A stretch of 63,713 nt of DNA, counting the filler, from Stramenopiles sp. TOSAG23-2 (Eukaryota), in assembly GCA_900128395.1 (NCBI GenBank). It is 14 parts of 14 records of this genome, joined end to end, with 100 filler letters (N's around TTAATTAATTAA, not from the genome) between each part and the next. Parts side by side here need not be neighbours in the genome. Positions count along the whole stretch, not along the records: positions 40,875 to 45,864 come from LT650758.1; 13 more parts are not named here. The stretch is one strand, 5' to 3'. The translations under genes and the position numbers were made by a program. Positions 5,028 through 62,505 of this stretch are shown in pieces. Each line of letters starts with the position of its first letter. Position 1 is the first letter of the stretch. The notes beneath the pieces are model-generated. The model searched no databases. It was not told where the DNA came from and worked only from the letters and a program-made list of their open reading frames with translations.

Positions 5028-5127
5028 NNNNNNNNNNNNNNNNNNNNNNNNNNNNNNNNNNNNNNNNNNNNTTAATTAATTAANNNNNNNNNNNNNNNNN
5101 NNNNNNNNNNNNNNNNNNNNNNNNNNN
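5028..5127. other. Artificial contig linker (N-run, TTAATTAATTAA, N-run). Same linker at 10154, 15267, 20377, 25485, 30587, 35684, 40775, 45865, 50950, 56024, 61098 and 62406
   Basis: Identical 100-nt spacers with stops in all six frames. Confidence 0.98.
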
Positions 5128-10153: not shown

Positions 10154-10654
10154 NNNNNNNNNNNNNNNNNNNNNNNNNNNNNNNNNNNNNNNNNNNNTTA
10201 ATTAATTAANNNNNNNNNNNNNNNNNNNNNNNNNNNNNNNNNNNNNNNNNNNNTATTATAGTTTTCTTAATTTGTTTTTAGCATATATTTGACCTTAATT
10301 TATGCATGCTATGATTTACTATGCCCTTCACTAGTGTTCTGACGATCCTTCCTATATGTAATGGTATAACCATAATAAAAAAACGAGGAAAAAACAGAAA
10401 ATAGAAAAAAAAGGAGGGCAATCTGGGAATAAATAGCAAATGTTGCAAATTGCAAATAGCAATAAATATAACTACAGAGTAAATAATAAATAATCAATAC
10501 TACTAATATAAACAATACAAAAATAATCTATATACTTTTGCTGCAAACAAAACGAATTCATATAGACGAATTAAACGTTCTCTGGATTATTGTGTCTAGT
10601 AGTTTTAATTTGATATTTTTTTTTAAACAAACTCAGAATTCTACACTCTACAAT

Positions 10655-40769: not shown

Positions 40770-40874
40770 TCTTANNNNNNNNNNNNNNNNNNNNNNNNNN
40801 NNNNNNNNNNNNNNNNNNTTAATTAATTAANNNNNNNNNNNNNNNNNNNNNNNNNNNNNNNNNNNNNNNNNNNN

Positions 40875-41204
40875 ATATTTCTCTGGTTTTAATTCTTCAC
40901 TGTGAACATTATTTTTCAATACAACAATTTTTGGACTTTTTTCCTTCAGTTTAATGAAGTAATCAAAATGCTTTGATTTACGGGAGATAGAAGTTAATTT
41001 ATAAAACACATCTTCCTCATATTCTTTAATGGTTGATATATAATCAGGTTGAATCTTGTTGGGCAACACTTCCGTTCTTTTCTTCTTCTTATAATAGTAA
41101 CAAGTTGTTATACCATAATCATTGTCTTCTGTCTCAAAACAATGTTTTCTTATCAAATGACCAGGTATAAAGTATTCTTTTCCTTCATAAAAAAAAATGG
41201 ACAT
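40875..41204 (-). CDS. Viral hypothetical protein, truncated
   Basis: K/Y-rich ORF running into the gap. Confidence 0.55.
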
Positions 41205-41293
41205 ATATATTAGCTAAATATTATAAAGTTGTTAGTAGGCGGAATTTAGGATATAACAAATAAATTTAAAGAACCACAACCATTTTTATATAT

Positions 41294-41791
41294 ATGAGTC
41301 AGGCAGCAACAGAAGTATTTAATAATTCAGACTTAGCTAAGTTAATATATACATATGATTCTACCTATAAAGAGATTTTTTTGAATGTTTTACAGGAGTT
41401 TGAAGATATAACCGGGGATATAATTTGTAAATACAAATATAGGTATTACCCATCAGATGATTCTGATAATGAATATGTATATAGGGATATATACCCATCA
41501 GATGATAATTCTGATGATGATGAAGAAGAGGATGAAGATGATGTTTCTCCGCATTTTATGGTAGAAATAGATAGTGAAGATGATGAAGAAGATTTTATAA
41601 TAAAAAATATCTATAATTGTAAAGACTTCTTTCATCTTTTTCAATTATGCCCTAGTCTTATTTCATATTATAGTTGTGAAGATTATTATGAAGAAAAACA
41701 TGATAAATATTATGAAAGAAAACACGAACTTGATAACTCAATAAGAGAATGGAGGGAAGAGTTATGGGAAGAGTTTAATAATGAATTCTAA
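41294..41791 (+). CDS. Acidic viral hypothetical protein
   Basis: 165-aa D/E-rich ORF inside the element; N-terminal LIYTYDSTYKEIF. Confidence 0.6.
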   Translation: MSQAATEVFNNSDLAKLIYTYDSTYKEIFLNVLQEFEDITGDIICKYKYRYYPSDDSDNEYVYRDIYPSDDNSDDDEEEDEDDVSPHFMVEIDSEDDEEDFIIKNIYNCKDFFHLFQLCPSLISYYSCEDYYEEKHDKYYERKHELDNSIREWREELWEEFNNEF

Positions 41792-41837
41792 TGTAGTCTA
41801 AATTATCTGTTTTGCCTATCATAACACCACATAATAT

Positions 41838-42108
41838 TGATTTTCCAAAACATCAAAACTACCTGTTGCGTGAGCCTGTGATTTTTCAAAACATCAAAAC
41901 TACCTGCTGCGTGAACCTGTGATTTTCCTAAAAATCAAAACTACCTGCTGTGTGAACCTGTGATTTTCCAAAACATCAAAACTACCTGTTGCATGAGCCT
42001 GTGATTTTCCAAAAAATCAAAACTACCTGCTGTGTAGACCTGTGATTTTCCAAAACCATCAAAACTACCTGTTGTGTAGACCTGTGATTTTCCAAAAAAT
42101 CAAAACTA
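41838..42108. repeat. 41-bp tandem repeat, about 6.6 copies, with an internal TGATTTT..AAAATCA dyad
   Basis: Units start at 41838, 41879, 41920, 41961, 42002, 42043 and 42085. Confidence 0.92.
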
Positions 42109-42205
42109 ATAGTATTGATTTTTTACCAAATCAAAAGAAGAATCTTAAAATATCTTTTGTGATTTAGCTAAAAAATCAATAATATAATATTACAATAATA
42201 TAATA

Positions 42206-43015
42206 ATGACTGACCTAAATATATACCAAGTGATGCCAGAAGAAGATGAGCACAATGTTAAAAGAGAACTTCATGAACATTTGCCAAATGTTTATAAAGC
42301 AGAGGCACTTCTTCTTGTATCTCCCCTAAGAGGAGGAAAAACTTCTTTAATATGTAATTTATTGGAAAGAGAAGAATTCTATAAGGACTTGTTTAATAAT
42401 TTAGATATTATTTCACCCATGGTTGGACAGGACAGTTCCTGGCGATTTTTATACCAAAAATACAAGAATGCTTGCCACTTACAATATGACGATTCAGTTA
42501 TACAACATATTATGGATAGACAGCAAGGGTTAATGGAAAATGATGAAGATACTAGCTATTGTGTTGTGTGCAATGATATTCTTGGACAAATTCCAGCCTC
42601 ATGCACTAGAAAAGGAAACCTGTTAACATATTGGTTATGCTGATTTAGGCACTATGTGAAGAAGCCTGACCCATGTTTATTTATTTTAAGCACACAAAAG
42701 TTTAGAGAAGTGAATGCGACACTCTGTGCCAATTCAACTGGTGTATTTATTAGCAGTAATATCCGAAACCAAAAGGAGATAGAAGTGTTAGCAGAGGAAT
42801 ATGCTGATACAATGGGCGGAAAAGAAGTATTTTACAAAATGTTAAATTATGTAAGAAAAGAAAAATACCAGTGGCTCTATCTTCAATTGACTACAGGCAA
42901 AGCATTTAAAAATTTTACGGAAATGCTATACAATGGTGATAAACTGTTGATTGGTAAAGGAGAAAAGGGAGATTTAGAAGAAGAAGAAGAAGAGATTTCA
43001 TCAGATGAAGATTAA
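42206..43015 (+). pseudogene. A32/FtsK-HerA-type DNA packaging ATPase with an in-frame TGA at 42641
   Basis: Walker A SPLRGGKT; degenerate Walker B CVVCND; *FRHY Arg motif; LSTQ motif. The two track ORFs are in the same frame. Confidence 0.85.
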
Positions 43016-43046
43016 CAGTTATTATTTTCTTGTTGAATTATATATT

Positions 43047-43649
43047 ATGTTTTCCACTTATGGTATTGAAAATTACGGAGCAGCAGATTTCAACGGCTTT
43101 AGAAACGATGTTATGGACAGGCACCAAGGTTATTTAAACAAAGAAAGTGCTTTACACCAGATAAATGTTTTAGCAAAAAGTAACAAGTTAGCTGCTGCAA
43201 GACAACAGTTTGCTCAAGGAACAGCACTTGTAAACAGAGGAGTAGAAATTGCTTCTACCGTTCCAACAACAGCACTGGTAGCACAAAAAATAGCAAATAG
43301 AGTTTCTACATTTGCGAAAACATCATCCACTCTTGCAAATGAAACGGGTGAAGCAACTGAAGGAATAGAATTACAAGATGTTGGGGATACGGCAGCAGTA
43401 AATACAACAGAAGATATAACCGAAGGTGTTGTTACAGATGTTGTAGCAGACTCAGCTTTAGGTGTTGTGGGGCTGTTAGCAGGTGCTGTCCAATTAGGCT
43501 TTGGGCTGTATGACTTATTTGAAGGCGATGCCAAGGAAGAAAAAGGCAAAAGTGATGAGACAGCTGCCAAAGCAACAAATATCCAGCCACCAAGACAGCA
43601 AATGAATTATGCAGAGTCATATGTAGCTCCAGTCAGTAGTGTAGTTTAG
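43047..43649 (+). CDS. Ala/Gly/Thr-rich viral protein with a hydrophobic helix (candidate virion or membrane-active protein)
   Basis: SALGVVGLLAGAVQLGFGLYDLF; sits between the ATPase and capsid genes. Confidence 0.6.
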   Translation: MFSTYGIENYGAADFNGFRNDVMDRHQGYLNKESALHQINVLAKSNKLAAARQQFAQGTALVNRGVEIASTVPTTALVAQKIANRVSTFAKTSSTLANETGEATEGIELQDVGDTAAVNTTEDITEGVVTDVVADSALGVVGLLAGAVQLGFGLYDLFEGDAKEEKGKSDETAAKATNIQPPRQQMNYAESYVAPVSSVV

Positions 43650-43688
43650 AAGAAATGGATTAATTTTTTATATAATATTATATATAAA

Positions 43689-45176
43689 ATGAATCAGAAT
43701 GTTCAAACACAAAGTGTGTCTTTAAAAACACAAAGGCAAATAGATTTTGTGGCAGAAAATATAGCTGTTATATCCATCCCACCAGCGGAAGTGCCAATGT
43801 TGTATGGTAAGCAGACGTATCTCAGATTTAATATCTTGATGGATGGTAATTGTAAAGGAATGCCTGATGATGCTGCTGCTGCTGCGAGTCTTATAGAAAG
43901 AATAGAGGTCTGGACTTTAGATAATCAGGCTATGCTGGAAAATATTATTGATTACAACAACTTATCAGTGACAAGAAACTTTTATGAAAATAATGATGCT
44001 ATGACAAATTTAGATGGAATTATTGAAGGTTACTCACCAAATGATTCACTTTCAAGCATATATTTTGATATGCCTTCTAGTGCTAGTCAATTAGGTTCTA
44101 CATTATTTAGGCAAGTAGAGGTATGTTTACCATTAAGATTATCTAGTGTATTTTATAAAAAAGTATTTCCTGTGTTAGCAGTTAGTGGAATTCAATTAAA
44201 GGTTCATTTTGCGCAAAACAATAAATCATTAAGAGCTTATACCGCAACAGGATTTAGCGCAGCTACTGGTTTTGAATTGAAAGTAGCATTACCAGAGTCA
44301 CCGCAAACTCAGTTGGTGTTGAAAAATACAGGAGCGGAGGCTGCTACATTAGCTAATTGCCCATTTGTGGTGGATACAAGCAAACTGCATACTATTCAAT
44401 ATGTAGATAATAATGGAGGCACAAAAAATGCGGGAACGTTGGATGGTATGTCTTTAGATGCTTCAGGTTGTATTGTGTTATCTTCATCTAGTTTTACACC
44501 TGATATTAGTGCCAATGCTGGAAACAAAGTGTTTTTATCAACTAGTAATTTAGATTTAAGTTACAAGGTGAAACATTGTGAATTAATTGCGTGTGTAGTT
44601 GAACCAGCTAAGGGATACCTACAATCAATGAATAAAAAGCTTAAAGAAGATGGTGCCATTACAATGGATATTTATTCTTGGAACAATTATAAAAACAATG
44701 TTAGTTTGAATGAAATGACAACTCAGCAATTAGTCCCCTGTCAGGAGGAACGAGCGTGCTCTTTAGTAAATAACCTATATAATCCCCAATATAGCTTTAC
44801 AACCAATGACTTGAAGCCAATCATTGATGGCTTACAACATTATCAAATGAATATTCACAATCAACTCATTCCGAACCGAGTGGTTGATACTAGTAGATTT
44901 TCAACTACCGGATTGGGATTCAATGCGATAAGTATTAGTGAAACCACCAAAACATTAAGCAGATGCTTCCCTGTAAGAAAAGAGAACGAAAATGGAAAAC
45001 ACTTTACATTTGGACGCGAAGTTAGTAAAGAAGGATATAGTTCAAATCTTAGGGATACAGACGTCCGCGTGAATATGTTTTTTAATTCTCCAGCAGTGAA
45101 CAAACTATTATATTCCAACGTATATCATTTAAGAAGAATCAAAGTAACTGATAATGGCATTACTGTTACTTTTTAG
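43689..45176 (+). CDS. Double-jelly-roll capsid-like protein 1 (PLV type)
   Basis: TYLRFNI...ASLIERIEV...LENIIDYN; VCLPL; FPVLAVSGIQLKV; YQMNIHNQLIP; beta-rich C-terminus; 495 aa. Confidence 0.75.
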   Translation: MNQNVQTQSVSLKTQRQIDFVAENIAVISIPPAEVPMLYGKQTYLRFNILMDGNCKGMPDDAAAAASLIERIEVWTLDNQAMLENIIDYNNLSVTRNFYENNDAMTNLDGIIEGYSPNDSLSSIYFDMPSSASQLGSTLFRQVEVCLPLRLSSVFYKKVFPVLAVSGIQLKVHFAQNNKSLRAYTATGFSAATGFELKVALPESPQTQLVLKNTGAEAATLANCPFVVDTSKLHTIQYVDNNGGTKNAGTLDGMSLDASGCIVLSSSSFTPDISANAGNKVFLSTSNLDLSYKVKHCELIACVVEPAKGYLQSMNKKLKEDGAITMDIYSWNNYKNNVSLNEMTTQQLVPCQEERACSLVNNLYNPQYSFTTNDLKPIIDGLQHYQMNIHNQLIPNRVVDTSRFSTTGLGFNAISISETTKTLSRCFPVRKENENGKHFTFGREVSKEGYSSNLRDTDVRVNMFFNSPAVNKLLYSNVYHLRRIKVTDNGITVTF

Positions 45177-45215
45177 TTTATTTTAGAAATATTTTTTTAT
45201 CTGTATCTAAAATAA

Positions 45216-45864
45216 ATGAATTCAGTTCAGCAATTTGAAATAGCACCAATTCAATGTCCAATCCAAGGAGTATACAGTAAAAAAAATGGCTCTGGTATTT
45301 TAACATTTTCAATTGGAGCTACAGAACAATGGTTACTCCCACATAGTTGCCATCTACAAATGAAGATACGAGTCCTCCAAGGTGACGGAAATAGACCAAA
45401 TAATAACTCACAAGCAGGTGGTGTAGCAAAAAATGTGACATTAGATTCTAGAACTGGTGGGATAGGTGTAATTGATTCTGTTATGGTAAATACAAAACGC
45501 GGACGAACATTGGAACACGGAAGAAACTACACGCGTATGTCAGGGACAATTTTACCCAATACAAAAAGTTGGGAGGATTATACCACATATATGAGTAATG
45601 TATATGGAAGTGTAGCAAATTCATTTGCCGAAGATAGAATGACTAATAGAGACATACTTGTATCTCAACCGCTTCTTTTAGGAACATTTAGTGGTGAACC
45701 TATCCCCCTTGGAATGAAAAATGGTGTAGGTGGGTTAGATATAATGATTTATTTACAAAATAATCCTAGTGCTATTTTTGGAGCAAACGCATCTGAATCT
45801 GGTGGGGCTTACTATGAAATACTGGAATGCTCTCTAACAGGTAAATATATGAATCCTGCTAGTG
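45216..45864 (+). CDS. Capsid-like protein 2 (putative paralog), truncated by the gap
   Basis: LTFSI...GVIDSVMV...LEHGRNY; PLLLG; IPL..GVGGLDIMIYL follow the same motif order as protein 1. Confidence 0.72.
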
Positions 45865-46069
45865 NNNNNNNNNNNNNNNNNNNNNNNNNNNNNNNNNNNN
45901 NNNNNNNNTTAATTAATTAANNNNNNNNNNNNNNNNNNNNNNNNNNNNNNNNNNNNNNNNNNNNTGTATACATTATTAATAACACACAATATATATTATA
46001 TACCATATAGAAAGTAGTACATACAGATAAAGAATATTATTACTAAATAAAAAAAAAGAAATTTTAAGC

Positions 46070-56023: not shown

Positions 56024-56125
56024 NNNNNNNNNNNNNNNNNNNNNNNNNNNNNNNNNNNNNNNNNNNNTTAATTAATTAANNNNNNNNNNNNNNNNNNNNN
56101 NNNNNNNNNNNNNNNNNNNNNNNGT

Positions 56126-58321
56126 AATATATCAACTTCACATAATAATAATAATAATAATAATAATTTCACAAAGGGCATTTCTTCTTCATCCAAAGAC
56201 TTTATTAAGAATTATAATAATAATAATTTTCAACACGGCTATGAGAATTGTAATAATAAATTATACAAACATCAATATCAATATTATCATAAACAACAAC
56301 CATTTTTATTTAAAATACATAATAGGACATTTGTAACTGAAGAGAAACAAAGAGAAGATACGAAAAAAAAAGATAAAAAGAAAGATAGCGACGACGAGGA
56401 GGAAAAACCAGCTGAAGGTGGATTTTTTTCCACAATATTTTCTGAAATTAAACAGGAATTAGATAAGAATGAAGATTTGAAAGAAAATTTGGATAAACTA
56501 TCAAAGTTAAAAGAGGATACCGAGAAAAAAGCAAATGAATATAAACCTCAAAACAAAGTAGCACAAGAAAAAGCTGAAGAAGCAGCGAAAGAAGCACAAA
56601 AAAAAGCTACGGAAGCAGCAGAGGCAGCTAAAAAAAAATCGGAAGATATGTATAAACAAGCAGAAAGTATGAAAGATTCTTTTAGCAAGCGATTTAAAAA
56701 TATTACTGATACTATCAATGAAAAAGCAGAAAAAATAGAGGAAGATAGTGATTCCGTACGGGAAGCGAAAAAAAAAGCATTCGAAGCAGCTGAAAAAGCT
56801 AAGAAAGAAGCGGAGAAAATTACTAGTACATCATCTTTTCAAAATATAGCTGGTACGTTTCAAGAAGTCATAAAGGAAGGCAAAGATGATTTATTTGGTG
56901 CGGACAAGGAAACTCGTAAAGCAAAACGTGATAGTAGGAAAAAAATGCGTGAAAGGCGTGCGGAGCGAAGAGATGCTAGAAGAGAGAAAGAACGTTTAGC
57001 AAAAGAAGCAGCTATAAAAAAAGAACAGGGGGAAGAACCGGATGATGCAGATGGGGCGGATGGTGGTAATGCAAAAAGTGGTGCAGCTGCAGAATGGGCT
57101 GAAGCAGTGGACGAAGAATCTGGTGATATATATTATTATAATATTAAATCAGGTGAAACAACATGGGAACAGCCGGAAGGATATGGTGCCAGTGATGGCG
57201 ATAACGAAGCAACTGGTGGTAATGATGATGATAGTGATACAACTAGTAATGATGATAACGAAGGAGATCAAGATAATGAAGATGCGGAAGATACATATCC
57301 TGTAATTGATGAAGCAGAAGCTAAGGCATATTTTGACGGGTTTGATACCGCTGGCAATGGTGTTATAGGTGAAGAACAATTTGATGATTTAGTAGATTTA
57401 ATTCATGAAGGACGACCTGACTTAGCTATTCCGCAGGACAGAGTTGAAGTACTTGGTGCACTGGAAGTTATGGATCCAGATGCTAAAGGTACTGTTAAAT
57501 TGGAAAATTATTTACAATGGATTGAAGCATATACGGCATCAGGTGGTAAATCACATGGAGAGCAAATTGGTGGTGGTGCCATTATATTACGTGGGGATAT
57601 TGAAACGGCATGGCAACGTGTTGGTGAACGTCTACGAAAGGCCCCGTTGATTGATGATATTTTAGGTGCATCTGAATTTGCTGGTAGACAGTTTGAAGAC
57701 ACTGAACTTGGTAAAAGTACTCGTAATGTGCGTGACCGTGTGTCAAATCTCCGGGAAGATGCATTGGAAACGTGGGAAACTAGTCAAAATCCATGGGTAT
57801 ACCGCTTTGCATCTGCTTATGATGGACTTACTGGCGAGACTGAACAAGGACAAGCTATGAAAGAATTAAGACGGTTGGATCCATCATGGGATTTATTGGA
57901 ATGGTTGGAAGAAGTCCAGGATGAAATTGCACCTGCATTATTGAAAGGTTATTTAGAAGGTGATAATGAGATTATTGATTATTATTGTGTTGATCAAGCT
58001 GCCGCTGTCATTAAAGCTACTAATAAAGATAATAAATTAGCAGGAAAAATACCTGATAATAATATATTAGATTTACGTGGTGTAGAGTTATTAGCAGCAC
58101 GAGTTTTACAAAGGGCGCCACCTATTTTGGTAGTTAAATTTAATGCGCAACAATTAGATTGTGTACGTAATAATAAAGGCGAAATCGTGGAAGGAAGTGA
58201 TGATCAAGTTTCAAACAATTTTTACTATGCAGCTATGCAACGAAATTGGGATGAAGAAGCTGAGGAATTACGATGGAATGTTTTGGAATTTCAGGTAATT
58301 GGTAAACTGCCATGGAATTAG
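56126..58321 (+). CDS. TIM44: Tim44-like mitochondrial import protein with WW and EF-hand inserts (5'-truncated)
   Basis: Tim44 C-domain (DPSWDL, PILVVKFNAQQLDCVRNNKGEIVEG); WW domain (W..GDIYYYN..GETTWEQP); two EF-like loops; frame open to the contig edge. Confidence 0.82.
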   Translation, partial: NISTSHNNNNNNNNFTKGISSSSKDFIKNYNNNNFQHGYENCNNKLYKHQYQYYHKQQPFLFKIHNRTFVTEEKQREDTKKKDKKKDSDDEEEKPAEGGFFSTIFSEIKQELDKNEDLKENLDKLSKLKEDTEKKANEYKPQNKVAQEKAEEAAKEAQKKATEAAEAAKKKSEDMYKQAESMKDSFSKRFKNITDTINEKAEKIEEDSDSVREAKKKAFEAAEKAKKEAEKITSTSSFQNIAGTFQEVIKEGKDDLFGADKETRKAKRDSRKKMRERRAERRDARREKERLAKEAAIKKEQGEEPDDADGADGGNAKSGAAAEWAEAVDEESGDIYYYNIKSGETTWEQPEGYGASDGDNEATGGNDDDSDTTSNDDNEGDQDNEDAEDTYPVIDEAEAKAYFDGFDTAGNGVIGEEQFDDLVDLIHEGRPDLAIPQDRVEVLGALEVMDPDAKGTVKLENYLQWIEAYTASGGKSHGEQIGGGAIILRGDIETAWQRVGERLRKAPLIDDILGASEFAGRQFEDTELGKSTRNVRDRVSNLREDALETWETSQNPWVYRFASAYDGLTGETEQGQAMKELRRLDPSWDLLEWLEEVQDEIAPALLKGYLEGDNEIIDYYCVDQAAAVIKATNKDNKLAGKIPDNNILDLRGVELLAARVLQRAPPILVVKFNAQQLDCVRNNKGEIVEGSDDQVSNNFYYAAMQRNWDEEAEELRWNVLEFQVIGKLPWN

Positions 58322-58899
58322 AAAAATAAAAATAAAACGACACGAGAAGAGCCAATTATGAGAGAAACATGTGTGTGTGTTACACATTAAAACCACATAT
58401 TCCACCAAATATTTTTTAAAATACGAGTATCATTTATCTTGTTTTTATTTTATTTTTATAAAATATTAAATTATAATTTTAATTAATATAAAAAATTTTC
58501 TCTTACTCATGTATTTTATATTTTTAAACAAAAAATTTTTATATATATATATTGCTAAAATCAAATTTGCAAAGATCTCGAACATCATGTGTACATATAA
58601 TTATATAATATATTATATAATTATATGTACACATGATGTTCGAGATCTTTGCAAATTTGATTTTAGCAATATATATATATAAAAATTTTTTGTTTAAAAA
58701 TATAAAATACATGAGTAAGAGAAAATTTTTTATATTAATTAAAATTATAATTTAATATTTTATAAAAATAAAATAAAAACAAGATAAATGATACTCGTAT
58801 TTTAAAAAATATTTGGTGGAATATGTGGTTTTAATGTGTAACACACACACATGTTTCTCTCATAATTGGCTCATCTGATGTCGTTTTATTTTTATTTTT

Positions 58900-61095
58900 C
58901 TAATTCCATGGCAGTTTACCAATTACCTGAAATTCCAAAACATTCCATCGTAATTCCTCAGCTTCTTCATCCCAATTTCGTTGCATAGCTGCATAGTAAA
59001 AATTGTTTGAAACTTGATCATCACTTCCTTCCACGATTTCGCCTTTATTATTACGTACACAATCTAATTGTTGCGCATTAAATTTAACTACCAAAATAGG
59101 TGGCGCCCTTTGTAAAACTCGTGCTGCTAATAACTCTACACCACGTAAATCTAATATATTATTATCAGGTATTTTTCCTGCTAATTTATTATCTTTATTA
59201 GTAGCTTTAATGACAGCGGCAGCTTGATCAACACAATAATAATCAATAATCTCATTATCACCTTCTAAATAACCTTTCAATAATGCAGGTGCAATTTCAT
59301 CCTGGACTTCTTCCAACCATTCCAATAAATCCCATGATGGATCCAACCGTCTTAATTCTTTCATAGCTTGTCCTTGTTCAGTCTCGCCAGTAAGTCCATC
59401 ATAAGCAGATGCAAAGCGGTATACCCATGGATTTTGACTAGTTTCCCACGTTTCCAATGCATCTTCCCGGAGATTTGACACACGGTCACGCACATTACGA
59501 GTACTTTTACCAAGTTCAGTGTCTTCAAACTGTCTACCAGCAAATTCAGATGCACCTAAAATATCATCAATCAACGGGGCCTTTCGTAGACGTTCACCAA
59601 CACGTTGCCATGCCGTTTCAATATCCCCACGTAATATAATGGCACCACCACCAATTTGCTCTCCATGTGATTTACCACCTGATGCCGTATATGCTTCAAT
59701 CCATTGTAAATAATTTTCCAATTTAACAGTACCTTTAGCATCTGGATCCATAACTTCCAGTGCACCAAGTACTTCAACTCTGTCCTGCGGAATAGCTAAG
59801 TCAGGTCGTCCTTCATGAATTAAATCTACTAAATCATCAAATTGTTCTTCACCTATAACACCATTGCCAGCGGTATCAAACCCGTCAAAATATGCCTTAG
59901 CTTCTGCTTCATCAATTACAGGATATGTATCTTCCGCATCTTCATTATCTTGATCTCCTTCGTTATCATCATTACTAGTTGTATCACTATCATCATCATT
60001 ACCACCAGTTGCTTCGTTATCGCCATCACTGGCACCATATCCTTCCGGCTGTTCCCATGTTGTTTCACCTGATTTAATATTATAATAATATATATCACCA
60101 GATTCTTCGTCCACTGCTTCAGCCCATTCTGCAGCTGCACCACTTTTTGCATTACCACCATCCGCCCCATCTGCATCATCCGGTTCTTCCCCCTGTTCTT
60201 TTTTTATAGCTGCTTCTTTTGCTAAACGTTCTTTCTCTCTTCTAGCATCTCTTCGCTCCGCACGCCTTTCACGCATTTTTTTCCTACTATCACGTTTTGC
60301 TTTACGAGTTTCCTTGTCCGCACCAAATAAATCATCTTTGCCTTCCTTTATGACTTCTTGAAACGTACCAGCTATATTTTGAAAAGATGATGTACTAGTA
60401 ATTTTCTCCGCTTCTTTCTTAGCTTTTTCAGCTGCTTCGAATGCTTTTTTTTTCGCTTCCCGTACGGAATCACTATCTTCCTCTATTTTTTCTGCTTTTT
60501 CATTGATAGTATCAGTAATATTTTTAAATCGCTTGCTAAAAGAATCTTTCATACTTTCTGCTTGTTTATACATATCTTCCGATCTTTTTTTAGCTGCCTC
60601 TGCTGCTTCCGTAGCTTTTTTTTGTGCTTCTTTCGCTGCTTCTTCAGCTTTTTCTTGTGCTACTTTGCTTTGAGGTTTATATTCATTTGCTTTTTTCTCG
60701 GTATCCTCTTTTAACTTTGATAGTTTATCCAAATTTTCTTTCAAATCTTCATTCTTATCTAATTCCTGTTTAATTTCAGAAAATATTGTGGAAAAAAATC
60801 CACCTTCAGCTGGTTTTTCCTCCTCCTCGTCGCTATCTTTCTTTTTATCTTTTTTTTTCGTATCTTCTCTTTGTTTCTCTTCAGTTACAAATGTCCTATT
60901 ATGTATTTTAAATAAAAATGGTTGTTGTTTATGATAATATTGATATTGATGTTTGTATAATTTATTATTACAATTCTCATAGCCTTGTTGAAAATTATTA
61001 TTATTATAATTCTTAATAAAGTCTTTGGATGAAGAAGAAATGCCCTTTGTGAAATTATTATTATTATTATTATTATTATGTGAAGTTGATATATT
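58900..61095 (-). CDS. TIM44: Inverted second copy of the Tim44-like gene
   Basis: Near-identical protein (N>S and K>R within the track ORF). Confidence 0.75.
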   Translation of the reverse strand, partial: NISTSHNNNNNNNNFTKGISSSSKDFIKNYNNNNFQQGYENCNNKLYKHQYQYYHKQQPFLFKIHNRTFVTEEKQREDTKKKDKKKDSDEEEEKPAEGGFFSTIFSEIKQELDKNEDLKENLDKLSKLKEDTEKKANEYKPQSKVAQEKAEEAAKEAQKKATEAAEAAKKRSEDMYKQAESMKDSFSKRFKNITDTINEKAEKIEEDSDSVREAKKKAFEAAEKAKKEAEKITSTSSFQNIAGTFQEVIKEGKDDLFGADKETRKAKRDSRKKMRERRAERRDARREKERLAKEAAIKKEQGEEPDDADGADGGNAKSGAAAEWAEAVDEESGDIYYYNIKSGETTWEQPEGYGASDGDNEATGGNDDDSDTTSNDDNEGDQDNEDAEDTYPVIDEAEAKAYFDGFDTAGNGVIGEEQFDDLVDLIHEGRPDLAIPQDRVEVLGALEVMDPDAKGTVKLENYLQWIEAYTASGGKSHGEQIGGGAIILRGDIETAWQRVGERLRKAPLIDDILGASEFAGRQFEDTELGKSTRNVRDRVSNLREDALETWETSQNPWVYRFASAYDGLTGETEQGQAMKELRRLDPSWDLLEWLEEVQDEIAPALLKGYLEGDNEIIDYYCVDQAAAVIKATNKDNKLAGKIPDNNILDLRGVELLAARVLQRAPPILVVKFNAQQLDCVRNNKGEIVEGSDDQVSNNFYYAAMQRNWDEEAEELRWNVLEFQVIGKLPWN

Positions 61096-61197
61096 ACNNN
61101 NNNNNNNNNNNNNNNNNNNNNNNNNNNNNNNNNNNNNNNNNTTAATTAATTAANNNNNNNNNNNNNNNNNNNNNNNNNNNNNNNNNNNNNNNNNNNN

Positions 61198-62308: not shown

Positions 62309-62505
62309 CCTATATATATATTTTGTTATCAAATTAGTAAAGATGTTAATAATAATACATGTGTAGTTGTACATAATATGAATTTATGTTAGTTGAATTC
62401 TTTTTNNNNNNNNNNNNNNNNNNNNNNNNNNNNNNNNNNNNNNNNNNNNTTAATTAATTAANNNNNNNNNNNNNNNNNNNNNNNNNNNNNNNNNNNNNNN
62501 NNNNN

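What the first reader, a model, noticed from the sequence alone, without database searches (positions are those of the whole stretch)
42206..43015. Packaging ATPase appears inactivated by CpG-type transitions, suggesting host methylation of an endogenous virus
Three motif deviations each revert with one CpG transition. The stop TGA at 42641 would be CGA, giving RFRHY. Walker B TGC-AAT at 42572 would be TGC-GAT, giving DD. TGT at 42725 would be CGT, giving LRAN as in the usual hRxN motif. SCHL in capsid 2 may likewise be CGT>CAT. This is the expected footprint of 5mC deamination and implies an integrated, silenced, decaying copy. The ancestral states are inferred from family motifs.
Basis: partly seen in the sequence, partly recalled or inferred. 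Interest (0 to 1): 0.8.

Follow-up and report, generated by a model that had tools for sequence, protein, structure and literature searches.

The report
Virus packaging gene eroded at CpG sites
A small contig from a marine eukaryote assembly carries capsid genes of a polinton-like virus whose DNA-packaging ATPase has been killed almost entirely by C-to-T changes at CpG sites, the mark expected of methylated DNA, but the contig is not linked to host DNA, so integration is not shown.

Summary
The sequence facts hold. ORF 42206-43015 is an A32/B204-type packaging ATPase with one in-frame TGA (42641), Asn for the first Walker-B Asp (42572) and Cys for an invariant Arg (42725). All 64 of 64 relatives have R, D and R there.

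The signal is wider than reported. 8 of 9 ATPase residues unique to this copy, and 4 of 4 in the capsid gene, are C>T or G>A changes sitting in TpG/CpA. By chance P <= 3e-14. The ATPase keeps 6 CpGs against 22-31 in four relatives.

Two corrections:
- "SCHL" in the penton is shared with the nearest relatives, so it is not a lesion.
- The window is a chain of 14 length-sorted contigs joined by N44-TTAATTAATTAA-N44 spacers. The viral part, 40875-45864, is one free-standing 4,990-nt contig. The "flanking host genes" lie on other contigs.

Best reading (0.6): a non-replicating, probably integrated polinton-like virus copy decaying by 5-methylcytosine deamination. Methylation, silencing, integration and a host DNMT were not testable. 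This is a new member of a known kind.

The parts
40775..40874 (.). Artificial spacer N44-TTAATTAATTAA-N44. It marks the left end of the viral contig.
   Evidence: 13 identical spacers split the window into 14 pieces of falling length.
40875..41204 (-). Conserved small ORF (orfM), cut at its 3' end by the contig end. It is divergent from the ATPase gene, as in relatives.
   Evidence: 66% aa identity to L027/L028, and hits in 98 loci..
41294..41791 (+). Acidic 165-aa ORF. It is absent between orfM and the ATPase in L027-L032 but conserved in closer relatives.
   Evidence: no hit in 105 loci. P0067 is 92% identical over 167 aa..
41838..42108 (+). 41-nt tandem array, 6.6 copies. The unit's single CpG reads CG in 2 units, TG in 3 and CA in 1.
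42206..43015 (+). Packaging ATPase gene (A32/B204 type, FtsK-HerA superfamily), inactivated.
42320..42343 (+). Walker A (SPLRGGKT), intact and typical of the family.
   Evidence: P40, R42 and K45 are conserved.
42419..42421 (+). ATG (Met72) where 63 of 64 relatives have Thr. TpG context.
42572..42574 (+). AAT (Asn123) after TGC, where 64 of 64 relatives have the first Walker-B Asp. CpA context.
42602..42607 (+). TGC-ACT (Cys133-Thr134), where the seven closest relatives have Arg and six of them Ala. TpG plus CpA, from one ancestral CGCG.
42641..42643 (+). In-frame TGA where 64 of 64 relatives have Arg. L028-L031 use CGA, CGC, CGT and CGT.
42725..42727 (+). TGT (Cys174) where 64 of 64 relatives have Arg of the hRxN motif.
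42785..42787 (+). GTG (Val194) where the closest relatives have Ala. L030 and L031 read GCG.
42932..42934 (+). AAT (Asn243) after TAC where relatives have Asp. CpA context.
42401..42403 (+). TTA (Leu66) where relatives have Val or Ile. This is the only copy-specific ATPase change that is not CpG-type.
43005..43649 (+). 214-aa ORF of unknown function. It is syntenic with 257-320-aa ORFs in L029-L032.
   Evidence: Nothing found in Pfam, PHROGs or the Atlas.
43689..45176 (+). Double jelly-roll major capsid protein gene with an open frame. The four copy-specific substitutions are CAA 43710, GTG 43968, CTG 44385 and ATG 44715, all in TpG/CpA context.
   Evidence: 30 row 43969 shows relatives read C (GCG) there.
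45216..45864 (+). Penton (minor capsid) gene, first 216 or so codons of about 442-451. It is cut by the contig end, not by a deletion.
45865..45964 (.). Artificial spacer. It marks the right end of the viral contig.

Best explanation
Window 40875-45864 is a single 4,990-nt contig carrying the morphogenetic module of a polinton-like virus (PLV). In order it holds a small conserved ORF, an acidic ORF plus a 41-nt repeat array, a packaging ATPase, a 214-aa ORF, a double jelly-roll capsid gene and the start of the penton gene.

This copy no longer has to package DNA. Its ATPase carries a nonsense codon, a Walker-B Asp>Asn change and an Arg>Cys change, all at positions invariant in the family.

Almost every change private to this copy is a C>T or G>A transition at a CpG, and CpGs are strongly depleted. 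The most likely mechanism runs as follows:
1. The copy sits as a non-replicating provirus, most probably integrated in the eukaryote's chromosome.
2. Its CpGs are 5-methylated as foreign DNA.
3. Spontaneous deamination of 5mC to T erodes them.
4. Once selection on packaging was lost, hits at catalytic residues were no longer removed.

Shown: gene identities, the lesions, their CpG context, the CpG deficit, and the absence of a general GC>AT drift.

Inferred: methylation, who methylates, integration and silencing.
For: - **Identity.** The ATPase model matches B204 packaging NTPases at E 4e-6 and TM 0.67-0.69 normalised to the target. The capsid model matches double jelly-roll capsid proteins of iridovirus, EhV, PBCV-1, PRD1 and mavirus at E 1e-8. 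The gene order orfM/ATPase/ORF/MCP/penton is kept in L029-L032. L029 and L030 also carry D5-like primase-helicase ORFs.
- **Lesions.** D123, R146 and R174 are invariant in 64 of 64 relatives, and the window differs at all three.
- **Private changes.** Against the nearest intact ATPases (P0009 95.4%, P0007 94.0%) and seven others, 9 residues are unique to the window. Eight of these need one C>T or G>A in an observed TpG/CpA. In the capsid gene the count is 4 of 4. One of those is confirmed at the DNA level: relatives read C at 43969.
- **Chance.** A random non-synonymous change is a CpG transition with probability 0.015-0.06 in the relatives' genes. That gives P(>=8 of 9) <= 1.4e-9 and P(>=12 of 13) <= 2.7e-14, an enrichment of at least 28-52 fold. 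Given a GC>AT transition, the chance of CpG context is 0.14-0.19.
- **CpG counts.** The ATPase has 6 CpGs against 31, 26, 22 and 22 in L028-L031. Contig CpG o/e is 0.42 against 0.77-1.17 in the other 13 contigs. Six viral ORFs score 0.27-0.54 and 23 cellular ORFs 0.57-1.35, Mann-Whitney P = 2e-6.
- **No general AT drift.** At non-CpG sites the window lineage shows 19 AT>GC and 5 GC>AT transitions.
- **Internal witness.** The only CpG of the 41-nt repeat unit has become TG in 3 units and CA in 1 of 6.
- **TGA is a real stop here.** 4 of 23 cellular ORFs end in TGA.
- **Precedent.** 5mC marks endogenous giant and polinton-related viruses in Amoebidium (PMC11244446, passages read). It also marks viral-origin genes in Acanthamoeba, Cyanophora and Naegleria, which lack gene-body methylation (PMC12344493, abstract read).
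Against: - **Integration is not shown.** The contig is wholly viral, and spacers separate it from the cellular contigs.
- **No direct data.** There is no methylation data, no DNMT search (no genome held) and no expression data.
- **CpG poverty can be a lineage trait in this virus family.** More distant relatives have whole-locus o/e of 0.24-0.64 (L005, L013, L016, L046, L003).
- **Some CpG loss predates the gene's death.** 3 of the 9 parsimony-resolved CpG losses on the window branch are synonymous C>A transversions (CGA>AGA at Arg20, 42 and 148). These are not deamination products, so they point to CpG loss under purifying selection.
- **The branch contrast is modest.** 9 of 62 window-derived changes fall at CpG, against 3 of 58 for L028.
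- **TpG/CpA excess is slight.** The (CpA+TpG)/(ApC+GpT) index is 1.34 against 1.29 in the other contigs.
- **Most divergence from less close relatives is not CpG-type.** Of 40 listed differences to contigs of 80% likeness or more, only 1 is relative-CpG against window-TpG.
- **ORF165 does not show the pattern.** It differs from its one close relative P0067 at 13 residues, and only 1 (R136H) is CpG-type. These changes could not be polarised.
- **Erosion is uneven.** CpG o/e is 0.33 in 40875-44750 and 0.70 in 44751-45864, P = 0.005.
- **Data quality.** Depth is about 5, and the DNA looks amplified: one contig is a perfect palindrome.
- **Missing comparison.** DNA of the closest intact relatives (the P0001/P0009 cluster) could not be fetched, so synonymous changes are not polarised.
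Confidence: 0.6

Rival explanations
1. The contig is not endogenous. It is a defective genome of an exogenous or episomal PLV present in the sampled cell. CpG poverty would then be a trait of the viral lineage, arising from selection against CpG or from methylation of viral DNA by a virus-encoded enzyme. The broken ATPase would be complemented by co-infecting intact genomes.
For: - The contig stands alone with no host junction.
- Distant relatives are also CpG-poor, at 0.24-0.64.
- Synonymous CGA>AGA changes indicate CpG loss while the protein was still under selection.
- Near-identical short pieces and intact relatives at 92-98% aa identity occur in many marine metagenomes.
- A relative (L031) encodes a DNA methyltransferase, though of the Dam N6-adenine type.
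Against: - Eight independent private hits in one gene, three of them at invariant residues, need long relaxed selection. That is hard to sustain in a replicating population.
- The nearest relatives with DNA are not CpG-poor: ATPase o/e is 0.82-1.28.
- No cytosine-5 methyltransferase domain was found in 28 ORFs of L028-L031 or in the one viral record searchable.
Confidence: 0.17
2. An active, enzyme-driven hypermutation of foreign or repeated DNA with CpG preference inactivated the copy in one or a few bursts. This would be a RIP-like process or a DNMT/deaminase-type defence, rather than slow spontaneous 5mC decay.
For: - The ratio of CpG to other private changes is extreme: 12 to 1, an enrichment of at least 28-52 fold with a point estimate near 190-350 fold.
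- There are no frameshifts and only one non-CpG private change in 2.3 kb.
- Erosion is regional, at 0.33 against 0.70.
Against: - Classical RIP indices are at background: TpA/ApT is 0.87 against 0.82 in the other contigs.
- No second copy is known.
- A low background mutation rate with full methylation would give the same ratio.
- No candidate enzyme could be sought.
Confidence: 0.1
3. The lesions are artefacts of amplified low-coverage data, such as damage-induced C>T during lysis or amplification, or a false consensus of several near-identical copies.
For: - Depth is about 5.
- One contig in the window is a perfect palindrome, typical of amplification or assembly chimeras.
- PMC10120064 (passages read) warns that many stop codons in endogenous PLVs are assembly artefacts.
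Against: - Damage-induced C>T is not CpG-specific, and P(all 8 in CpG | GC>AT transition) <= 1.6e-6.
- 12 hits in 2.3 kb is far above any error rate.
- A second assembler reproduces 42150-42929 exactly.
- The contig-wide CpG deficit, including at synonymous sites, cannot be an error.
Confidence: 0.04
4. The gene is functional: the TGA is read through or recoded, or the gene is naturally split.
For: The rest of the frame is open.
Against: - 64 of 64 relatives have Arg there, and none is split. The 'shorter' search found only contig-end fragments.
- TGA ends 4 of 23 cellular ORFs.
- Walker-B Asp and Arg174 are also lost.
Confidence: 0.01

Closest known systems
A32/B204-type genome-packaging ATPases (FtsK-HerA superfamily) of double jelly-roll capsid viruses, such as STIV/STIV2 B204 (PDB 4kfs, 4r2h)
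   Same: The fold of the 92%-identical relative matches B204 as the top 10 hits. It has a P-loop with an invariant Lys, an hhhhDD Walker B and conserved Arg residues downstream. The gene sits beside the capsid genes.
   Different: No Pfam, PHROG or PDB sequence-level match. Walker A begins with Ser or Ala instead of Gly across the whole family. This copy is inactivated.
Polinton-like viruses and their endogenous copies in protist genomes (PMC10120064; PMC12220804; passages read)
   Same: The ATPase, double jelly-roll MCP and penton module is present. Relatives sit on 17-37 kb contigs from marine metagenomes and IMG/VR. L029 and L030 carry a D5-like primase-helicase.
   Different: Only 5 kb is seen here, with no replication or integration gene and no termini. 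Those two papers do not mention CpG: 'CpG' occurs 0 times in either, and 'methylation' 0 and 2 times.
5mC silencing of endogenised viruses in unicellular eukaryotes: Amoebidium (PMC11244446), Acanthamoeba (PMC12210455), Acanthamoeba/Cyanophora/Naegleria (PMC12344493), Chlamydomonas punuivirus (bioRxiv 10.64898/2026.10.09.758095)
   Same: Foreign viral DNA is singled out for CpG methylation in genomes without gene-body methylation. Here the cellular contigs are not CpG-depleted while the viral one is. The punuivirus preprint (passage read) cites TET-like demethylases in PLVs as a counter-measure.
   Different: Those studies measure methylation directly. Here only the mutational footprint is seen. 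In the passages I read they do not report CpG>TpG decay of viral genes.
CpG decay of methylated transposons and endogenous retroviruses in vertebrates (PMC4804638, abstract seen in a search listing)
   Same: An elevated CpG>TpG/CpA rate leaves CpG depletion and R>C, R>stop and T>M replacements.
   Different: The host is a microbial eukaryote whose own genes are not CpG-depleted. The CpG to non-CpG ratio here is higher than the roughly tenfold I recall for mammals.
Repeat-induced point mutation (RIP) of fungi (recalled, no call)
   Same: C>T hypermutation that kills invading or repeated DNA without indels.
   Different: Classical RIP prefers CpA and raises TpA/ApT. Here the context is CpG and TpA/ApT is at background. 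No duplicate copy is known.

Membership tests
A32/B204-type packaging ATPase (FtsK-HerA superfamily) | P-loop Walker A with catalytic Lys | tested here: met
   GGKT is present at 42332-42343. K45 is invariant in 38 sequences.
A32/B204-type packaging ATPase (FtsK-HerA superfamily) | Walker B, a hydrophobic strand ending in DD/DE | tested here: not met
   Relatives have DD in 64 of 64. The window has ND. The family membership of the gene stands, but this copy lacks the catalytic residue.
A32/B204-type packaging ATPase (FtsK-HerA superfamily) | Fold like solved viral packaging NTPases | tested here: met
   Model of P0001 has pLDDT 88.4. Foldseek ranks 1-10 are all B204, at E 3.9e-6 to 3.3e-5. The test was on the relative, not on the broken copy.
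A32/B204-type packaging ATPase (FtsK-HerA superfamily) | Sequence-profile match to a curated family | tested here: not met
   0 Pfam families, and only 1 PHROG hit at E 0.048. The best PDB profile hit is E 0.22, covering the P-loop only.
Polinton-like virus | Double jelly-roll major capsid protein | tested here: met
   Model pLDDT 74.4. The top PDB and BFVD hits are all double jelly-roll capsid proteins, at E 1e-8 to 1e-11 and TM 0.4-0.5.
Polinton-like virus | Penton (minor capsid) gene next to the MCP | tested here: inconclusive
   The syntenic ORF is homologous in 50 loci. Its fold was not modelled, and the gene is cut by the contig end.
Polinton-like virus | Genome of about 14-40 kb with replication module and termini | not testable with these tools
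   Only 4,990 nt is held. Relatives' contigs are 17-37 kb with D5-like ORFs. No inverted terminal repeats were found in the fetched parts.
Endogenous viral element | Physical junction with host chromosomal DNA | tested here: not met
   The contig is viral end to end. Its neighbours in the window are separate contigs behind spacers.
Endogenous viral element | Loss-of-function lesions incompatible with autonomous replication | tested here: met
   A nonsense codon plus two invariant catalytic residues lost in the ATPase.
5mC-deamination footprint | Excess of CpG>TpG/CpA among lineage-specific changes | tested here: met
   12 of 13 private substitutions, P <= 2.7e-14.
5mC-deamination footprint | CpG observed/expected deficit relative to the genome and to relatives | tested here: met
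   0.42 against 0.77-1.17 in the other contigs. ATPase 0.27 against 0.82-1.28 in relatives.
5mC-deamination footprint | Matching TpG/CpA surplus | tested here: inconclusive
   Index 1.34 against 1.29 in the other contigs. ATPase TG/CA is 1.29/1.17 against 1.24/1.06 in L028.
5mC-deamination footprint | Cytosine methylation of the locus and a DNMT in the organism | not testable with these tools
   No genome is held, and no methylation-aware reads are available.
Classical RIP | CpA>TpA bias with raised TpA/ApT | tested here: not met
   TpA/ApT is 0.87 against 0.82 background, and the context is CpG.

The most novel reading that the evidence does not exclude
An uncultured marine eukaryote has an active, CpG-directed hypermutation defence against polinton-like viruses. 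It would be RIP-like or methyltransferase/deaminase-driven and act on a bounded domain of the invading DNA, here the left 3.9 kb. It would kill genes by transitions alone, at a rate at least 28-52 times that of all other changes.
Probability: 0.1. Interest if true: 0.75.

Novelty: new member of a known kind. Interest (0 to 1): 0.4.

Why it matters
If the reading is right, sequence alone shows that an uncultured marine eukaryote methylates CpGs of an invading polinton-like virus while leaving its own genes unmethylated. That extends the link between 5mC and viral endogenisation, measured so far in a few cultured protists, to PLVs in the ocean.

It also gives a cheap test, private CpG transitions plus a local CpG deficit, for telling dead proviruses from live viruses in fragmentary assemblies.

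There is a practical point for the scan as well. This window is a chain of unrelated contigs, so neighbourhood arguments across the N44-TTAATTAATTAA-N44 spacers are invalid.

Tried and rejected
- **My own earlier reading.** I first read the region as a 5-kb viral fragment inserted between a coiled-coil gene and GET3, with a truncated penton. I dropped this once the N runs proved to be contig spacers.
- **Curated libraries.** Pfam and PHROGs gave nothing for the five viral ORFs. A PDB sequence profile gave only a P-loop hit at E 0.22.
- **Whole genome.** None is held, so there was no DNMT search and no search for sibling copies.
- **DNA of the closest intact relatives.** None could be obtained. 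The metagenome scan returned relatives of at most 73.5% nt identity. The genome-contig scan with P0001 found none. IMG/VR holds only relatives at 35-45% aa identity.
- **Split forms.** The 'shorter' protein search gave four contig-end fragments, and none shares the stop.
- **Virus-encoded cytosine methyltransferase.** There was no PF00145-type hit in 28 ORFs of L028-L031. PF00145 found nothing in the one record that could be searched; L028-L031 are not held.
- **Terminal inverted repeats in L028-L031.** None found.
- **TGA recoding.** Rejected.
- **Classical RIP.** Rejected on indices.
- **Host lineage.** The Atlas places the CDC73 protein nearest a cluster whose commonest phylum is Oomycota, at score 0.96. 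This is a lead only.
- **ORF214 in the Atlas.** Best score 0.80, no lead.
- **Closer copies in other runs.** The letters of the 94%-similar X11 contig (record 9) at the lesion sites were not among the rows shown. The same is true of the single differences in the near-identical X5 and X2 pieces.
- **Literature.** Four searches found no paper reporting CpG-transition decay of polinton-like viruses. Supplementary files were not consulted.
Full report
**What is at the coordinates**

Frame 1 of 42206-43015 is open for 269 codons apart from one TGA at 42641-42643. Pfam, PHROGs and a PDB sequence profile do not recognise the product.

A search of 5.8 billion proteins found five clusters of full-length, uninterrupted relatives at 92, 84, 66, 45 and 42% identity. 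Scans of IMG/VR and of metagenome contigs gave 26 and 79 loci.

An AlphaFold model of the 92% relative P0001, built on 38 sequences, has pLDDT 88.4. Its ten best PDB matches are all the STIV/STIV2 B204 genome-packaging NTPase, at E 3.9e-6 to 3.3e-5 and target-normalised TM 0.60-0.69.

The 495-aa ORF downstream (43689-45176) models as a double jelly-roll capsid protein (pLDDT 74.4). Its best matches are the capsid proteins of iridovirus, EhV, PBCV-1, PRD1, mavirus and many giant viruses.

The order small ORF(-)/ATPase/ORF/MCP/penton recurs in L029-L032, which also carry D5-like primase-helicase ORFs. This is the morphogenetic module of a polinton-like virus.

**The three motif deviations**

In 64 non-identical relatives covering at least 80% of the protein, the positions of the window's Asn123, stop146 and Cys174 are Asp, Arg and Arg in 64 of 64. 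They are also invariant in the 38-sequence alignment, together with Lys45, Asp124, Arg148 and His149.

Logan contigs of run X1, which holds 0.92 of the sampled words and is probably the source data, reproduce 42150-42929 without a difference at depth about 5. TGA terminates 4 of 23 cellular ORFs in the window, so it is a stop in this organism. A search restricted to shorter proteins found only contig-end fragments, and none shares the stop.

**The CpG signature is stronger than reported**

The closest intact ATPases are members of the P0001 cluster: P0009 at 95.4% and P0007 at 94.0%. They share with the window several residues that first looked like lesions (VVC before DD, VGQDSS, HLQY). Those are ordinary lineage substitutions.

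Nine residues are unique to the window against nine relatives:

| Residue | Codon | CpG-type? |
|---|---|---|
| Leu66 | TTA | no |
| Met72 | ATG | yes |
| Asn123 | AAT after TGC | yes |
| Cys133 | TGC | yes |
| Thr134 | ACT after TGC | yes |
| stop146 | TGA | yes |
| Cys174 | TGT | yes |
| Val194 | GTG | yes |
| Asn243 | AAT after TAC | yes |

Eight of the nine are reached from the relatives' residue by a single C>T or G>A whose window context is TpG or CpA. Only Leu66 is not.

In the capsid gene, closer relatives were found in the P0036 cluster at 95-98% identity. One of them, P0053, lies on a contig of the same length (13,942 nt) as that of P0001. Four residues are unique to the window:
- Gln8 (CAA, relatives Arg)
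- Val94 (GTG, relatives Ala)
- Leu233 (CTG, relatives Pro)
- Met343 (ATG, relatives Thr or Ser)

All four are of the same CpG type. For Val94 the DNA of relatives in two runs reads C at 43969, that is GCG.

In the relatives' own ATPase genes a random non-synonymous change is a CpG transition with probability 0.015-0.06, for transition bias 1 to 10. This gives P(>=8 of 9) <= 1.4e-9 and P(>=12 of 13) <= 2.7e-14. The lower 95% bound on enrichment is 28-52 fold. Even given that a change is a GC>AT transition, CpG context has probability only 0.14-0.19.

**CpG content**

- The window's ATPase has 6 CpGs (o/e 0.27). L028, L029, L030 and L031 have 31, 26, 22 and 22 (o/e 0.82-1.28).
- On the window branch of a parsimony comparison, 9 of 13 resolved ancestral CpGs are lost.
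- Non-CpG sites show 19 AT>GC and 5 GC>AT transitions, so there is no general drift to AT.
- The 41-nt tandem array upstream of the gene gives an internal witness. The unit's only CpG is CG in two units, TG in three and CA in one.

**Qualifications on the CpG story**

- Three of the nine resolved CpG losses are synonymous CGA>AGA transversions, which deamination does not produce. Part of the CpG poverty therefore arose while the protein was still under selection.
- The contrast with the sister branch is modest: 9 of 62 changes at CpG against 3 of 58.
- More distant relatives are CpG-poor over whole loci, at 0.24-0.64.
- The TpG/CpA surplus is slight.
- Of 40 listed differences to contigs of 80% likeness or more in the capsid region, only one is relative-CpG against window-TpG.
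- ORF165 differs from its one close relative at 13 residues, of which one is CpG-type. These changes could not be polarised.
- Erosion is uneven: o/e is 0.33 in 40875-44750 and 0.70 in 44751-45864 (P = 0.005). All 12 private CpG hits lie in the first part.

**The claim about capsid 2**

'SCHL' in the penton is not a lesion. L032 reads SCHL, L030 SVHL and L029 TMHL at that place. Only more distant relatives have Lys or Arg.

**The window is not one molecule**

The N runs are 13 copies of N44-TTAATTAATTAA-N44, a spacer with stops in all frames. They cut the window into 14 pieces of 5027, 5026, 5013, 5010, 5008, 5002, 4997, 4991, 4990, 4985, 4974, 4974, 1208 and 1208 nt. These are contigs sorted by length and chained.

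The viral part is exactly one piece, 40875-45864. It starts inside the small ORF and ends at about codon 216 of a penton gene that is 442-451 codons long in relatives. It contains no cellular gene.

The cellular genes belong to other contigs. They include CDC73, PTEN, Tim44, GET3/ArsA, a K2P channel and NECAP, and they show that the assembly is of a eukaryote.

I had first read the region as a 5-kb fragment inserted between cellular genes with a truncated penton. That reading is withdrawn.

The CpG contrast survives as a contrast between contigs: 0.42 for the viral contig against 0.77-1.17 for the other 13, and six viral ORFs at 0.27-0.54 against 23 cellular ORFs at 0.57-1.35. It no longer maps a methylated island inside a chromosome.

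One piece, 56124-61097, is a perfect palindrome. Together with a run of about 10 Mb of contigs at depth about 5, this suggests amplified DNA.

**Mechanism**

Shown:
- a PLV capsid/packaging module;
- a dead ATPase;
- private changes almost exclusively at CpG;
- a strong CpG deficit not shared by the cellular contigs or by the nearest relatives with DNA.

Inferred:
- The copy has been free of selection for packaging for long enough to take eight hits. This is most simply explained by vertical inheritance as a provirus.
- Its CpGs are methylated.
- 5mC deamination is the mutagen.

This fits what has been measured in cultured protists. 5mC marks endogenised giant and polinton-related viruses in Amoebidium, and demethylation reactivates viral genes (PMC11244446, passages). 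Viral-origin genes are methylated in Acanthamoeba, Cyanophora and Naegleria, which lack gene-body methylation (PMC12344493, abstract; PMC12210455, passages). A 2026 preprint on Chlamydomonas punuivirus cites TET-like demethylases in PLVs as a counter-measure (10.64898/2026.10.09.758095, passage).

I put 0.6 on the whole chain. By my own estimate, near-certainty attaches to 'inactivated by CpG-type transitions', about 0.7 to 5mC as the cause, and about 0.7 to integration.

Rivals:
- a defective genome of a free or episomal, inherently CpG-poor virus (0.17);
- an active CpG-directed hypermutation (0.10);
- an artefact (0.04);
- read-through or a split gene (0.01).

No cytosine-5 methyltransferase was seen in 28 ORFs of the four nearest loci. 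One of them encodes a Dam-type adenine methyltransferase.

**Novelty**

Endogenous PLVs are known to be abundant in protist genomes (PMC10120064, PMC12220804; passages). 5mC control of endogenous viruses in protists is also known.

A CpG-transition footprint on a PLV was not found in four literature searches. The two PLV papers contain the word CpG zero times. Supplements were not seen.

This is a new member of a known kind, cleanly documented but resting on one low-coverage contig.

Noticed in passing
window 5028-5127, 10154-10253, ... 62406-62505 (13 places): Every N run is N44-TTAATTAATTAA-N44. The window is a pseudomolecule of 14 contigs in order of falling length (5027 down to 1208 nt). 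No gene-neighbourhood argument across a spacer is valid in this window, and probably not in other windows of this record.
   Followed up: yes
window 56124-61097: This whole 4,974-nt contig is a perfect palindrome (arms 56121-58610 and 58611-61100, 100% complementary, no spacer). It carries a WW+Tim44 gene twice in inverted orientation. It looks like an amplification or assembly chimera, not biology.
   Followed up: partly
window 41294-41791: The acidic 165-aa ORF is absent from L027-L032, where the small ORF and the ATPase gene abut. It is a real conserved gene of the closest lineage: P0067 is 92% identical over 167 aa, and P0068 shares the first 49 residues. Function unknown.
   Followed up: partly
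window 41838-42108: A 41-nt tandem array of 6.6 copies lies just upstream of the ATPase start. Relatives seen in run X11 diverge from the window upstream of about 42175-42185, so the array may be specific to this lineage. It could be a promoter or repeat-binding region.
   Followed up: partly
window 40875-44750 versus 44751-45864: CpG erosion is regional. CpG o/e is 0.33 in the left 3.9 kb and 0.70 in the right 1.1 kb (P = 0.005). All 12 private CpG-type substitutions lie in the left part.
   Followed up: partly
L031 1954-2403: A relative encodes a Dam-like N6-adenine DNA methyltransferase (PF05869, E 4e-15). No cytosine-5 methyltransferase was seen in the 28 ORFs scanned from L028-L031.
   Followed up: partly
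L029 3-1823 (-); L030 1020-2711 (+); L030 16091-16915 and L031 11824-12579 (-): The relatives' contigs carry eukaryote-type genes at their edges: an ankyrin-repeat protein in L029 and an ARID + zf-CW protein in L030. That would fit integration of these relatives. A RING-finger ORF sits at the same position in L030 and L031 and so is probably viral.
   Followed up: no
window 42185-43910 (run X11 record 9); 42375-42554 (X5 record 25); 42416-42566 (X2 record 18): Other public runs hold a copy about 94% identical (107 differences and 8 gaps, with paired 1-nt indels at 42409 and 42420). They also hold 150-180-nt pieces that differ from the window by a single letter. Whether these copies share the lesions was not visible in the output.
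   Followed up: no
protein P0008 (ATPase relative, 267 aa): One otherwise intact close relative has Ser where all others have Arg146 (WLCSFRHY). This is a second independent change at the codon that is the stop in the window.
   Followed up: no
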